This document shows positions 135 to 52,530 of a DNA stretch of 64,000 bases, in pieces (position 1 is the stretch's first letter; the number at the start of each line of letters is the position of its first letter). The stretch is from Eledone cirrhosa (Eukaryota). Under the pieces are notes generated by a model. It did not search any database. It had not been told where the DNA came from and saw only the letters and a program-made list of their open reading frames with translations. The position numbers and the translations under genes were made by a program. The stretch is taken from positions 7,564,001-7,628,000 of the forward strand of contig OZ024749.1 of the NCBI GenBank assembly GCA_964016885.1. The letters run 5' to 3'.

Positions 135-246
135 AGGAGGGACACGACAGCTAAGCTGTCACTGTTTCAATGGCTAGTTCCAAACTTGAAGAGTCTGAAA
201 CTAGGCTGTAGAAACGGTAAGAGTTTAGCTGTCGCGTCTCGACTCT
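135..246. repeat. Diverged fold-back hairpin containing the 3' half of a hammerhead
   Basis: GACACGACAGCTAAGCT..ACTGTTTC pairs with GAAACGGT..AGTTTAGCTGTCGCGTC. The right arm reads GAAAC-GGTAAGAGTTTAGCT-GTC. Confidence 0.6.
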
Positions 247-773
247 TTATATATATATATATATATATATATATATATATATATATATATATATATATAT
301 ATATATATATATACCCATTGTTAAAAATGTATCCCTTAGGATCTCCAGATTGTCTGCCTCTGAATCCTCTGTCAACAGACACGTGGACTACAACAATGCT
401 GCTCTACTTAAGGCCGGTTATAGTGAACCAATGAAGTTTCTTCCAGACACACCATGCGGAGGAAAACCCAACCACCCCATACATCACAAGTATACATATA
501 AAATTTGCAAATTTAAATACCAACGGCTTAATGCCCCACAAAGGCGGGACAAATAATAATACTGCAACTATGAAAACACCAAGGAAGTTCCACACAAAAT
601 CATACCTATGGTATTATCCTCCGCATAACGATCTTCGTAACTACTAAGCTATCCTATCTCTTCTTCAAACTTATGGACGAATACTTTCCCCCCAACACAC
701 ACATTCCATAGAATACTAAATAGAGACACCACCGGCCTATCCTATTCCACCACATCTAACATGGGCTATTTCA

Positions 774-963
774 TAATTGTTTCTACTTTAGGCACAAGGC
801 CAGCAATTACCCAGTGCATTACTGGTACTTTATTTTATCGACCCCGTAAGGATGAAAGGCAAAGTTAACCTCGGCGGGATTTGAACTCAGTCCGTAAAGG
901 GACGTAAATATGCTGCAAAGCATGGCGTCCGACCCTCTACCGATACTGCCAATCCACCGCCCT
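774..963 (-). mobile_element. tRNA-derived SINE with 15-bp TSD
   Basis: Sense strand has an A-box-like TGGCAGTATCGG, a B box GAGTTCAAATCC, the core GTTAACTTTGCCTTTCATCCTTACGGGGTCGATAAAATAAAGTACCAG and tail AAACAATTAT. TSD GGGCTATTTCATAAT at 763-777 and 967-981. Confidence 0.9.
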
Positions 964-2046
964 TTGGGGCTATTTCATAATGCAATTGAATGACAAACAC
1001 CTCCGCAGGTACATCAATACCAACAGCCAACGGATACACGGACAAAATCTGAACCCCTAGCAACACCCGCAGCCTCCAACACTCAGCAAATACCAACGTC
1101 TCTTCCACTTCACGCGTATATCCTGAGCAACAACAAAATACCCTGTATAACACCCCTAACACTGGAACCAGGGAGGAAACCACGCACTATACACGGACAA
1201 ACTGCAACAGCAGAAATCCCAGCAATTGTCCTGTATCGGTTAAATGTTTGTACAAAAATATCATTTATCAATGTGTGGGAAAATCTAAACTGGTGATATA
1301 TAAATATGTGGGTTCCACTTTGAATATTTTCAAGAAAAGTTGGTATGCACACACCCACACATTTAAAAACCCCAAGTTTAGCTAGATCTACGACCCAGGC
1401 GAAAAAGAAAATGTCGGATCTGAAGCACGCTAATATTAAATTCACACTACAATGATCGGTGCTAAAATTCGCTCGTCCATACCGGAATGAAAGACTCTTC
1501 TGTGAATTATGCTTAGCGGAAGTACTAAATTCCCAGCACGATAGGATGTTTATTGCAAATACAAGTTTCGAAAAACCTTCGCTAAATACAAACTGGACTA
1601 GAGCAAGATTCGAACCTTATTACCTAGATTTAACTACATTCTATTTAATACAATTGCTTTGGCATTTGATTCAGTAATATTCAAAAGAATCACATTTTCT
1701 TAATTCCTTTCCTCCCTACCCACACTATCCTACTCTTAATTTCTACCCCCTCCTTTTCTGATCTTCTCTTTATACATTCTCTACCCTCTCGACCATATAT
1801 GGTAAATATCAAAATCTTCACCCATACCAATGATCAAAGAATAATTGTTCCTCATCACAGCACACAGATCGGTCATGTAAAACTCTTTACCCATATCCCC
1901 CCCCCCATCTACACACACACTCCCTCTCCTCTCTACTATCACACGAACTGATTATTTTATATTTTAAACTTATTTACATTTTCTTAAACGAAAATCTCAT
2001 TGCTGAACTCTACCGCGTAGTGAACAGTTGAATTCCGCTACTATAG

Positions 2047-2158
2047 GCTTTCTGATGAAGTGTAACAAATAATTAAGTATTGCATACGATTGAACAATAT
2101 ATATTGTAGTCAACATATGTAAACAATTTACATTAGACACGGAAACCTATGTTAAAAC
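2047..2158 (+). ncRNA. Hammerhead-like motif with a large branched stem II insertion
   Basis: TTT-CTGATGA-A-GTGT...(about 75 nt with hairpins ACAATATATATTGT and ATGTAAA/TTTACAT)...ACAC-G-GAAAC-CTAT-GTT-AAAA. Lies at the 3' end of the upstream PLE. Stem I is weak. Confidence 0.55.
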
Positions 2159-50075: not shown

Positions 50076-50239
50076 ATCACTATGGAAACGTCATGTTGAG
50101 TCAAACTTAGCCAAGCGTTAATACTATCCACTTCTCGGAGTACCCTGACTGGACTACATCTAAGTGGACTACCTATAACAATAATTTGTTATCCCGTATA
50201 TATATATATATATATATATATATATATATATATATATAT

Positions 50240-51797
50240 ATTGTTATACTTGGGGAGGGTCATATTTGCGTAATATTGCCAGAATTAATAACAGAACACA
50301 CTCACTGTTTGGTTGGTTTTCGCTTCTCGCTGTCTTTTATATCTGCGATCTAACTTACTCGGTCCTCAATGTTGCCATTGACTGACCGGCGGTCAAAAAT
50401 AATACAGATACAATATAGACACAAACACATATATATAGTTTACATAAGTTACATAAATCTTTCGTTGCACATCTGCAACATCGTCAGTGGTGTTATATTC
50501 TTTGTTCCTCCTGTTGTGTTGTATGTCTACGCCATTTTTTATTCAGTCTGTCTATATATTTATTTATTTATTTGCTTGTTTGTTTATCTTATTTTATTTT
50601 GTCTTCTTTGCGCATGCGTTTGCGTGTGTGCATAGTGTTATGTGTGCTGTGTGACTAGTGTGTATAGTGTTGTGTCTGCTGGGTCACTAGTGTGTGTTTA
50701 TGTGCTTGTTGTTATCGTGCTTGTGTACGTATTTATTTATCTTATTTTATTTTATTTTATTTACTTATTTATACTTCTCTTAGGTCAATGTTGTTTGTTT
50801 GGGTGTTGTTGTTGTTCCACTCATTCTTTCTGTTTAGCTTTGGTCTTCTAATTTCTATTTCACTGGCCTCTCTGATTTGCCTATCTGCTGGGTCATTCCT
50901 ATGTTTAGATATTATTCTAATTTCTATGTTGTCTATGTTACCGTCATGTTGTTGTCTAGCATGTTCATATAGTACTGACCCGTTTTTTCGTCCTTTTAGT
51001 TCCCCCCAGTGTTGGTCTATCCTTTCACCTATGCTACGAGCTGTCTCACCTATGTATGTTGTTGTCATGTTTCTGCAAGTACCCTCTGTACATCTTATGC
51101 TATAGACTACGTTTCTAGTTTTACAGTTTATCCGGGGGTTCACCTTACATATGATACATTTCCTATTGGTACAGTGGGTTTTCTTAAAAGGGTAGGTTTT
51201 GCTGATCAGGGATTTTATGGTGGTTCCTGGCTTTTCTACCACCTTTATTTTTAAGTGGGTCTTTCTCAGGGCCTTTCTACACTGGTTAGCTAATTTCCCT
51301 CCAGGGGTGGCGTCCACAAACATGACACTCTGATATCTCTGGTTGTCGTACCATGATGTGGCCTTCCCTATCTTATGCCTAGCCCTATCTAAGCTATTCC
51401 ATGATTTGCTCCTGTATAGTGGGCAAATTCCTTTCATGTCCAGTTCTATGAGGGTCTTATACTTTTCCATGGCTCCTTCGTATACTCTGACTCTGTCTCT
51501 TTGGTTGTAGCCAGAGAACTGCATGCGGTTGATGAAGTGTTGGATGTGTCTTTCCATTTCTGTTGGGTCGCACATGCTGGACACATTCTTCATCACTCGT
51601 ACCAAATCTGCGATCAGAATATTAAACTTAGCACTACTGGACATTGCTGGACATTGCTGGACATTGCTGAGTTTTTGAGTATCAGGTATTTGGAGGCCAT
51701 GGGTTTAGCATAGTGTGAGTGGAGAATTTGGGCTCTCTCGTCTATAGTGTTAATCCAGAGTTCTGTGTCTAATACCGGTAGTCTATTGTTAGGGTGT
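50240..51797 (-). mobile_element. 5'-truncated PLE (YVDD lineage) with GIY-YIG and degenerate HHR (about 50450-50491)
   Basis: ORF 50769-51644. Reverse complement CTGACGA-T-GTTGCA-GATG-TGCAAC-GAAAG. Family terminus at 50240. Confidence 0.9.
50769..51644 (-). CDS. PLE thumb/linker + GIY-YIG endonuclease
   Basis: MQFSGY, VMFVDATPGGKLA, KVVEKPG, CTNRKCIIC, VVYSIRC...TYIGETARSIGERIDQH, RQIREA, LNRKNEW. Confidence 0.88.
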   Translation of the reverse strand: MSSSAKFNILIADLVRVMKNVSSMCDPTEMERHIQHFINRMQFSGYNQRDRVRVYEGAMEKYKTLIELDMKGICPLYRSKSWNSLDRARHKIGKATSWYDNQRYQSVMFVDATPGGKLANQCRKALRKTHLKIKVVEKPGTTIKSLISKTYPFKKTHCTNRKCIICKVNPRINCKTRNVVYSIRCTEGTCRNMTTTYIGETARSIGERIDQHWGELKGRKNGSVLYEHARQQHDGNIDNIEIRIISKHRNDPADRQIREASEIEIRRPKLNRKNEWNNNNTQTNNIDLREV

Positions 51798-52334
51798 TAT
51801 ATGTATATATATATATATATATATACATACATATAAATATACATCAAGAGAAAGGATAAAATCATATTCAAGTATATATGTATCGATTATTTGATTGATT
51901 TACAAATTTCCTGAGACGTCTCATAACCATTTCTTTCCCACTGAACACGTGGCTGTGAGTGTTTGTGCACGCGGGGAGGTTTCAATATAAGCAAAAAAAA
52001 TTATTTTTTTTATTGAAGTATTATCAAAGAATTTAATAAGTCCAGTGAAATTTGATATAAAGTTGCAGACATTTAATATCGGGAAACATATTGTTGGAGA
52101 AATAAAAGAAGAGAAGAAAATATATATACGCCATGTGTAGTTTTTCGAAAGAAAAATGTAAAGAAATTGTCTAAACTTTTTAACTGCTGACTACAACAGC
52201 ATTTATTTGATCTGACATGTCTATATTTTGCTTAAATATAGTATTTGTAAACTACTCACGTTGTATGTATGTGTGCGTGTCTGTATATATATATATATAT
52301 ATATATATATATATATATATATATATATATATAT

Positions 52335-52530
52335 ATAGGAACGAGTAGGACCACGACGGCTGAGCTCAAGCCGTTTCGGCGGCTAATTCTGGACAGAATT
52401 AGCCGTCGAAACGGCTTGAGCTCAACCGTTGGGGTCCTACTCGTTCCTATTACCCACTCTACTACCCTAAGTATTGAGTACTTTGGTGCGTTGTGGTCCA
52501 CCTGGTTCCTTGCCAAATTTCCTCCGTTAT
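52335..52530 (+). mobile_element. PLE-type 3' end with half-hammerhead hairpin (52335-52450)
   Basis: GGCGGCTAATTCTG-GA-CAGAATTAGCCGTC-GAAAC-GGCTTGAGCTCAACC-GTT-GGGG with a mirrored left arm. Confidence 0.82.

What the first reader, a model, noticed from the sequence alone, without database searches (positions are those of the whole stretch)
135..52530. 'Half-hammerhead' snap-back palindromes whose inversion point is the apex of HHR stem II
Seen: hairpins at 135-246, 5647-5773, 6094-6209, 43839-43930, 48806-48915 and 52335-52450 share one architecture. A central stem-loop is followed on each strand by a GAAA(C)-like motif, a long near-palindromic stem III (e.g. ACGGC-T-TGAGCTCA-GCCGT), then GUA/GUC/GUU and a G-rich strand. 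This is the 3' half of a hammerhead. The 5' half (stem I + CUGANGA) is always replaced by the mirror image. The central stems differ between loci, so these look like independent events. Inference: PLE cDNA snaps back at the pre-formed stem II and self-primes second-strand synthesis, giving stereotyped 100-200 bp insertions. Alternatively they are a mobile class of 'substrate-half' RNAs that an intact HHR could cleave in trans. I know no description of this breakpoint specificity.
Basis: partly seen in the sequence, partly recalled or inferred. Interest (0 to 1): 0.85.

Follow-up and report, generated by a model that had tools for sequence, protein, structure and literature searches.

The report
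Head-to-head Penelope mini-insertions, fixed 5' edge
These hairpins are short insertions of a Penelope-like jumping gene, present in tens of thousands of copies, whose two arms mostly stop at the same spot inside the parent's hammerhead motif; they are likely two separate DNA copies that ran to the start of the element's RNA and were joined head to head, not one copy folding back.

Summary
Partly confirmed. Three of the six hairpins (6016-6207, 43760-43930, 52338-52527) are the 3' end of one autonomous Penelope-like element (RT plus C-terminal GIY-YIG, Hydra-like motifs, (TA)n target); two look like older relatives; one is a chimera. The tail has 40,978 exact hits. The parent's hammerhead has a variant core (YUGANAA), so the predicted CUGANGA parent has 0 hits; the 'central stem' is only the mirror of the stem II 3' strand. 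Breakpoints cluster strongly, with an edge at an A 41 nt before the predicted cut; other families here have their own fixed edges upstream of the whole ribozyme, so stem II is not the cause. Junctions form anew (46 distinct of 50). Snap-back cannot make the 15 of 70 copies whose tail-less arm reaches further 5'. Best model (0.55): two cDNAs primed on opposite target strands run off the RNA 5' end (likely the transcription start) and are end-joined. Against: long copies mostly read past that edge; no RNA data. The inverted-copy-plus-tail layout is published, and this scan reported similar fold-backs in two shark-type genomes; the fixed edge and the two-cDNA evidence I did not find in print.

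The parts
52394..52527 (+). Tailed arm: parent positions -37 to +97 (numbered from the predicted ribozyme cut): end of loop II, stem II 3' strand, GAAA 52408-52411, stem III, NUH 52428-52430, stem I 3' strand, 80-nt tail 52448-52527; followed by (TA)n
52338..52394 (-). Tail-less inverted arm: parent -40 to +17, starting in (TA)n; shares 1 nt with the tailed arm at the junction
6016..6154 (-).
6155..6207 (+). Tail-less arm, parent -35 to +17, followed by (TA)n
43760..43890 (-). Tailed arm, parent +97 to -35
43890..43930 (+). Tail-less arm, parent about -24 to +17 (lacks the stem II 3' strand)
135..246 (.). Older relative: two diverged arms (to 186 on -, from 192 on +), both reaching the homologous edge A, 5-nt spacer; no tail visible, a different PLE mini abuts it at 1-125
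5714..5788 (+). Remnant of an older subfamily: 34-bp palindrome plus a decayed tail-less arm without GAAA; joined to an unrelated repeat at 5613-5709
48806..48915 (.). Probable older relative, two tail-less arms at the centre of a 710-bp inverted duplication (48495-49204)

Best explanation
The hairpins are mini-insertions of an autonomous Penelope-like retroelement into (TA)n, made of two minus-strand copies of its pLTR end joined head to head; they likely arise when the element's protein primes one cDNA on each strand of the cut target and both cDNAs run off the 5' end of the RNA, which is likely the transcription start inside loop II of the hammerhead motif. Shown: parent, target, two fixed outer ends (+97 and +17, both followed by TAT in the parent), varied junctions, a shared inner edge at about -41, arms of the same subfamily. 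Inferred: two priming events (strong), end joining with trimming, short overlaps or added bases (moderate), RNA 5' end = start site (moderate). Speculative: self-cleavage of the complete 3' ribozyme removes the 3' priming site, leaving only the priming site near the cap, which would explain why about nine in ten insertions are minis.
For: Parent: L108 pLTR-ORF-pLTR, 718-aa ORF, repeat 3118 bp; three-unit array with 3.54-kb period in L232. Ends: 87 of 96 tailed arms end at the tail end, 81 of these 87 in TA; 61 of 74 inverted arms end at the pLTR end. Edge: 48 of 96 tailed and 50 of 74 inverted arms end in -47..-35, 0 of 96 in -100..-67; 169 of 206 arms end within 16 positions, none of the other 37 in the next six (labels there are shifted by one). 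Of the first 100 listed arms holding A-41, 68 stop within about 4 nt of it, 30 read on, 2 unclear (counted by eye). Genome counts fall 53,660 / 28,086 / 4,585 / 2,023 going 5' (patterns cover unequal subfamily sets). Both arms stop at one RNA position though they start 80 nt apart. A TATA-like run lies 29-31 nt before A-41 in 8 of 8 parents; family B stops at an A 29-32 nt after TATAAATA (30 of 37 arms within 6 nt of the core, 7 exactly at that A, none at 7-21). Two cDNAs: tail-less arm reaches >10 nt further 5' in 15 of 70, the reverse in 6 of 70; 7 of 86 tail-less arms are joined to a tail fragment only; 3 of 55 pairs have arms of two recurring haplotypes. In vitro a PLE cuts and extends both strands, starts RT at two sites that define the tail, and is predicted dimeric (PMC11167929); PLE start sites lie in the pLTR (PMC2377424, PMC8557442).
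Against: Of 21 loci that carry the tail-5'UTR junction and at least 1.4 kb of ORF side, only 1 ends near the edge (-27); 19 read past it and 1 ends in the tail (10 are inside tandem arrays, so not independent). A start site at -41 predicts more full-length copies ending there. No excess of an added G at the edge (G in 15 of 32 non-T bases, against 18 of 41 at neighbouring stops), so no cap signature. The one older-subfamily parent seen (L079) keeps the TTAGT context but has no TATA-like run at -30. The edge is blurred: stops also occur at -42 to -48. 52 of 55 arm pairs are of one subfamily (37 identical against 8.9 expected), which snap-back also predicts. Ribozyme activity is untested, and one subfamily has C3 with A8. 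Samples come from the first 18 Mb of one contig.
Confidence: 0.55

Rival explanations
1. Two cDNAs as above, but the edge is a block on a longer RNA: the element's own protein, or a fold, bound at the stem II/loop II region next to the priming site stops RT there; or the RNA is cut there by a nuclease.
For: Long copies pass the upstream copy of the same sequence freely (19 of 21), which fits a block present only on the bound unit; the PAc ribozyme needs protein (PMC11167929); no cap-G excess.
Against: The edge lies at different places relative to the ribozyme in families A, B, C, F and G; in B it follows a clear TATAAATA at 29-32 nt; the stop is after the stem II 3' strand has been copied.
Confidence: 0.25
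2. Snap-back (first reader; self-priming in PMC3846280): the tailed cDNA folds back and copies itself to +17.
For: Arms are of one subfamily in 52 of 55; 40 of 71 have inner ends within 5 nt of each other; 6 of 70 have the tailed arm longer.
Against: Impossible for 15 of 70 and 7 of 86 copies unless later deletions removed only tailed-arm sequence; many junctions have no overlap or carry added bases; 3 of 55 have arms from two haplotypes; it does not explain a fixed stop at +17.
Confidence: 0.1
3. The hairpin is itself a short mobile element (SINE- or MITE-like) copied whole.
For: 40 of 40 scored hits to the window copy cover all 192 nt at 94-100%, but these were ranked by likeness to that copy.
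Against: 46 distinct junction strings in 50 unselected hairpins; the recurring ones occur in different subfamilies. Tailed arms of minis might still be transcribed and re-primed, which I could not test.
Confidence: 0.06
4. Half ribozymes are substrates cut in trans (or by strand swapping with the 3' copy on the same RNA), perhaps on the way to a circular monomer RNA.
For: Loop III is palindromic, as in dimer-forming PLE hammerheads (PMC4209133); 4 of 35 short tailed arms begin at -1..+2 (p = 0.048, one-sided, window chosen after seeing the data).
Against: Most minis keep the cut site intact, so their templates were uncut; a whole mini transcript would fold into a plain hairpin.
Confidence: 0.04

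Closest known systems
Complex insertions of endonuclease-positive Penelope-like elements: adjacent inverted 5'-truncated copy, tail on one end (PMC8557442 passages and Fig. 2 legend; PMC3846280 passages)
   Same: Inverted copy at the 5' end, tail on one side only, partial tandems in long copies, ribozyme in the pLTR, heavy 5' truncation.
   Different: Tail is 80 nt, not 30-40; most copies are under 200 bp with a fixed family-specific inner edge; published explanations are self-priming or endonuclease resolution, whereas the arm geometry here needs two cDNAs.
Hydra clade PLEs (PMC8557442 section 11 and supplement part 2; lists Hydra-1_Obim from an octopus)
   Same: C-terminal GIY-YIG, DKT, CxCX5C linker, CxxC and CxH, (TA)n target, ribozyme near the 3' end.
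   Different: RWR for RWK; unit 3.1-3.5 kb; ribozyme core and long stem II differ from every Hydra ribozyme in the part of the table I read, including Hydra-1_oBim; no tree built.
PAc (Poseidon, Anolis) in vitro mechanism (PMC11167929, parts 1-2 of 4 read)
   Same: Internal RT start at two sites that bound the tail, AT-rich target, both strands extended, uncut RNA as template.
   Different: In the parts read the paper does not link the two start sites to the two arms of an inverted insertion, nor describe a fixed 5' edge; here both start sites are followed by TAT, matching the target.
U3-A8 hammerhead variant of Cercyon PLEs (PMC4209133, parts 1-2 of 4 read)
   Same: U3-A8 core, extra base after A9, G10.1-C11.1, long helix II.
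   Different: Here helix III is 5-6 bp with a palindromic loop, loop II is about 33 nt, and some subfamilies have C3 with A8.
L1 twin priming (recalled, no call; one search found no paper joining it to Penelope)
   Same: Two primers from the two target strands give an inversion joined by short overlaps.
   Different: In L1 the two cDNAs cover different parts of one RNA; here they cover the same 58 nt, giving a hairpin.

Membership tests
EN+ PLE complex insertion | Inverted 5'-truncated copy next to the 5' end | tested here: met
   74 of 96 tail-anchored copies
EN+ PLE complex insertion | Tail on one end only | tested here: met
   61 of 74 inverted arms end at the pLTR end; tail is 80 nt rather than 30-40
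EN+ PLE complex insertion | Parent with single RT + GIY-YIG ORF between pLTRs, partial tandems | tested here: met
   L108, L232; YRDD 348, YIG 606. By motif only: Pfam gave no family
EN+ PLE complex insertion | Target site duplication | not testable with these tools
   insertions lie in (TA)n runs
Hydra clade | DKT, CxCX5C linker, CxxC and CxH near the end of EN | tested here: met
   positions 117, 572, 670, 698
Hydra clade | RWK motif | tested here: inconclusive
   RWR at 37
Hydra clade | No CCHH motif in EN | tested here: met
   one Cys only before YIG, read by eye from the translation
Hydra clade | (TA)n target | tested here: met
   81 of 87 full tails end in TA
Hydra clade | Canonical hammerhead; length generally under 3 kb (described, not strict) | tested here: not met
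   core YUGANAA, unit 3.1-3.5 kb; so filed as Hydra-like, not as a member
Hydra clade | Placement in the RT tree | not tested
   no reference proteins in hand
Type I hammerhead (parent pLTR) | Three helices around the core boxes | tested here: met
   88% of cells paired, 3 double changes in helix II, all from one older copy; slid controls 26-54% (8 sequences)
Type I hammerhead (parent pLTR) | Paired positions 3 and 8 | tested here: inconclusive
   U3-A8 in most of 26 copies, C3 with A8 in the rest; CTGANGA pattern 0 hits
Type I hammerhead (parent pLTR) | Self-cleavage | not testable with these tools
   needs an assay
Type I hammerhead (mini copies) | 5' core box present | tested here: not met
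   absent from the three window members and from 87 of 96 sampled copies
MITE / SINE-like unit copied whole | One conserved internal sequence | tested here: not met
   46 distinct junctions of 50

The most novel reading that the evidence does not exclude
Penelope inverted-repeat insertions are made by paired priming: a dimeric RNP starts one cDNA at each of the two tail-bounding start sites on opposite target strands. Because transcription starts inside the ribozyme and the complete 3' ribozyme cuts off the 3' priming site, most events copy only the capped 5' end of the mRNA, so mini hairpins map each family's start site from DNA alone and the ribozyme sets the ratio of dead minis to full copies.
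Probability: 0.35. Interest if true: 0.65.

Novelty: new variant of a known kind. Interest (0 to 1): 0.45.

Why it matters
How PLEs form their tandem/inverted structures is named as open in PMC8557442, and the only in vitro study leaves the steps after first-strand synthesis untested. Tens of thousands of short copies give a cheap genomic test: arm geometry separates self-priming from paired priming, and a fixed edge predicts the RNA 5' end to within a few bases. Practically, these hairpins would be mistaken for MITEs, miRNA precursors or half ribozymes in annotation. The element class and the layout are known, so this is a mechanistic refinement, not a new system.

Tried and rejected
Rfam scan: no hammerhead among the 150 of 564 matches listed, swamped by microsatellite hits. 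Inverted-repeat tool swamped by (TA)n; my own scan found only 4 of the 6 loci at its threshold. CTGANGA-before-central-stem pattern: 0. Pfam: no family for the parent ORF or two window ORFs. No RNA holder listed. Contigs of four runs laid on the parent show a depth step at the edge bin and TA loose ends at both outer ends, but depth is no copy number and runs X1, X4 may be the assembly's own material, so it is not counted as support. One search had a mis-written pattern (41 hits, uninformative); corrected. Cap-G test inconclusive. A 3' splice site at -40/-39 was considered: many arms keep A-41 and G-40 and no upstream exon is joined, so rejected. Assembly fold-back artefact rejected: arms differ at 4.2% of 2,805 sites, rare alleles on one arm 52 times, on both 4 times, which also argues against later gene conversion. 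Rows dropped: of the first 100 tail hits 99 were fetched and 96 kept after removing identical sequences; 3-4 inverted copies with overlap artefacts or a tailed second arm were left out of the 71/70 counts; L001-L030 were left out because they were chosen by junction. Literature searches found no description of a fixed inner edge or paired priming in PLEs; subscription papers (e.g. the 2005-2006 PLE reviews) are not in the library, and supplements of the bioRxiv preprint (passages only) are closed.
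Full report
Setting. The window lies in a 3.0-Gb assembly rich in (TA)n and in fragments of Penelope-like elements (PLEs). Positions below are numbered from the predicted ribozyme cut in the parent copy L108 (first base after the cut = +1 = L108:3570).

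Observation. 135-246 is an older relative, 48806-48915 a weak one inside a 710-bp inverted duplication, and 5647-5773 a chimera of a 75-nt remnant and another repeat. The family is large: 53,660 exact hits for a 23-mer in the hairpin (hairpins can count twice) and 40,978 for a 25-mer in the tail, with 0 for the reversed controls.

Parent. Fetching the first listed hits along contig C1 showed copies that continue 5' into a 3' UTR and an ORF. L108 is pLTR-tail-5'UTR-ORF-3'UTR-pLTR with a 3118-bp repeat and a 718-aa protein; L232 holds three units at 3.54-kb spacing. The protein has YRDD, a C-terminal YIG, DKT, CxCX5C, CxxC and CxH, which match the description of Hydra PLEs (PMC8557442 section 11); RWR replaces RWK, Pfam gives nothing and no tree was built, so I call it Hydra-like. 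The pLTR holds a hammerhead-shaped motif with core YUGANAA, a 9-bp helix II with a 33-nt loop, and a palindromic loop III (26 copies; 88% paired, three double changes from one older copy). U3-A8 is a published PLE variant (PMC4209133).

Anatomy of the minis. In 96 distinct tail-anchored copies (of 99 fetched from the first 100 listed), 87 end at the tail end (+97), 81 of those in TA; 74 have an inverted arm, 61 of which end at the pLTR end (+17). In the parent both ends are followed by TAT. This is the published layout of an inverted 5'-truncated copy with a tail on one end (PMC8557442; PMC3846280), and the two ends correspond to the two internal RT start sites that bound the tail in PAc (PMC11167929).

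Formed anew each time. 50 hairpins gave 46 different junction strings, and repeats of a junction occur in different subfamilies. The impression of one fixed unit came from ranking by likeness to the query. Arms match in subfamily (37 of 55 identical over a 12-nt diagnostic stretch, 8.9 expected; 52 of 55 same type), yet rare alleles sit on one arm 52 times and on both 4 times: same source at insertion, independent decay since.

Not snap-back. A fold-back of the tailed cDNA can only copy what that cDNA holds. The tail-less arm reaches more than 10 nt further 5' in 15 of 70 copies (reverse: 6 of 70), and 7 of 86 core-anchored arms are joined to a piece of tail only. Three of 55 pairs combine two recurring haplotypes. 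Two cDNAs primed from the two target strands explain this; PAc cuts and extends both strands and is predicted to be a dimer. Junctions show 0-4 nt overlaps, added bases or runs of T, as expected of end joining (inference). Later deletion could mimic some cases, and snap-back may make a minority.

The edge. 48 of 96 tailed and 50 of 74 inverted arms end in -47..-35; none of 96 ends in -100..-67; 9 of 96 run beyond -100. Among 206 arms, 169 end within 16 positions and none of the remaining 37 in the next six (its labels are one too low, and the 16 at its label -49 are probably arms that stop at -41 next to partner sequence resembling the parent). Among the first 100 listed arms that hold A-41, 68 stop within about 4 nt, 30 read on, 2 are unclear (by eye). 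Whole-genome counts fall from 53,660 (-30..-8) to 28,086 (from -41), 4,585 (from -51) and 2,023 (-91..-67), with unequal subfamily cover. Since the two arms start 80 nt apart and stop at one place, the edge is a feature of the RNA, not a length limit.

Stem II is not the cause. Family B (window 1-125, canonical CUGAUGA) makes the same minis but its arms stop within 6 nt before the core (30 of 37; 7 exactly at one A; none at 7-21 nt), and that A lies 29-32 nt after TATAAATA in 4 parents. Families C, F and G also show recurring 5' limits upstream of their cores (by eye, output cut). In family A a TATA-like run lies 29-31 nt before A-41 in 8 of 8 parents, and the A sits in a TTAGT or TCAGT context (the labels TATA-like and initiator-like are recalled). 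Older relatives stop at the homologous A. PLE start sites are known to lie in the pLTR (PMC2377424; PMC8557442). I therefore read the edge as the RNA 5' end, likely the start site, which in this lineage happens to fall in loop II and so leaves a half hammerhead.

Against this reading. Copies with the tail-5'UTR junction (227 exact hits) and at least 1.4 kb of ORF side mostly run past -41: 19 of 21, with 1 ending at -27 and 1 in the tail; 10 are in arrays. Among the 9 other loci, with shorter downstream parts, 3 end at -37/-38 and 2 have an inverted arm ending at -40/-41. Long copies must then come from read-through or circular templates (the latter proposed in PMC4209133), and start-site RNAs must usually lack a usable 3' tail, perhaps through ribozyme cleavage; that step is speculation. 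There is no cap-G excess, the one older parent lacks the TATA-like run, and a block by bound protein remains a fair rival. The excess of arms starting at the cut site is marginal (4 of 35, p = 0.048).

What is known. The layout, the (TA)n target, ribozymes in pLTRs, internal priming and a self-priming proposal are in print. Two earlier notes of this scan describe similar fold-backs in shark-type genomes and call them ordinary (not checked by me); none exists for this genome or sequence. Searches found no account of a fixed inner edge or of paired priming in PLEs. Papers seen: PMC11167929 and PMC4209133 parts 1-2 of 4; PMC8557442 passages, section 11, supplement search and part 2 of 59; PMC3846280, PMC2377424, PMC13282606 and the 2026 retrozyme preprint as passages; the rest as listings.

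Verdict. A real, abundant, stereotyped by-product of a Hydra-like PLE; known kind, new variant. PLE origin about 0.97, two cDNAs about 0.8, start-site run-off about 0.65 given that; joint 0.55. Interest 0.45.

Noticed in passing
window 1-125 (apex just outside, L231:1430-1630): Mini hairpin of a second PLE family (B) with a complete CUGAUGA hammerhead on both arms and a tail sharing the TATTGAGTAC motif with family A; apex 5-6 nt before the core.
   Followed up: yes
window 36269-36441: Hairpin of a third family (C) with a U3-A8 core; arms recur to a limit about 40 nt before the core.
   Followed up: partly
window 62191-62400, 35600, 31127: Hairpin and arms of a fourth family (G) with CUGAUGA core and ATATAT stem III; 29159-31054 (-) is a 631-aa Hydra-like ORF beside one of them.
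   Followed up: partly
window 48495-49204: 710-bp inverted duplication including about 310 bp of flank (a SINE-like repeat) on each side of the tail-less hairpin; flank duplication is not explained by the model.
   Followed up: partly
window 14205-14326 and 39788-40302: Further long palindromes: a perfect 58-bp-arm hairpin of the SINE-like repeat, and a 245-bp-arm one with hammerhead cores at 39899 (-) and 40191 (+).
   Followed up: no
L094 (minus strand, near 1328): A family-A tail fragment joined head to head to a family-G arm between TA runs: a possible cross-family pair of cDNAs (single case).
   Followed up: no
L040, L084, L148, L037: Runs of T (A on the cDNA) added 5' of the edge, up to about 60 nt of untemplated A/T sequence; looks like repeated addition at a template end.
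   Followed up: partly
G000:C2:356030076-356031890: Seven-unit tandem with 299-bp period containing the tail-5'UTR junction: a possible retrozyme-like satellite from this family.
   Followed up: no
window 50769-55420: Remnants of another PLE type with C-terminal GIY-YIG in inverted arrangement, with hammerhead cores at 53453 (-) and 55321 (+).
   Followed up: no
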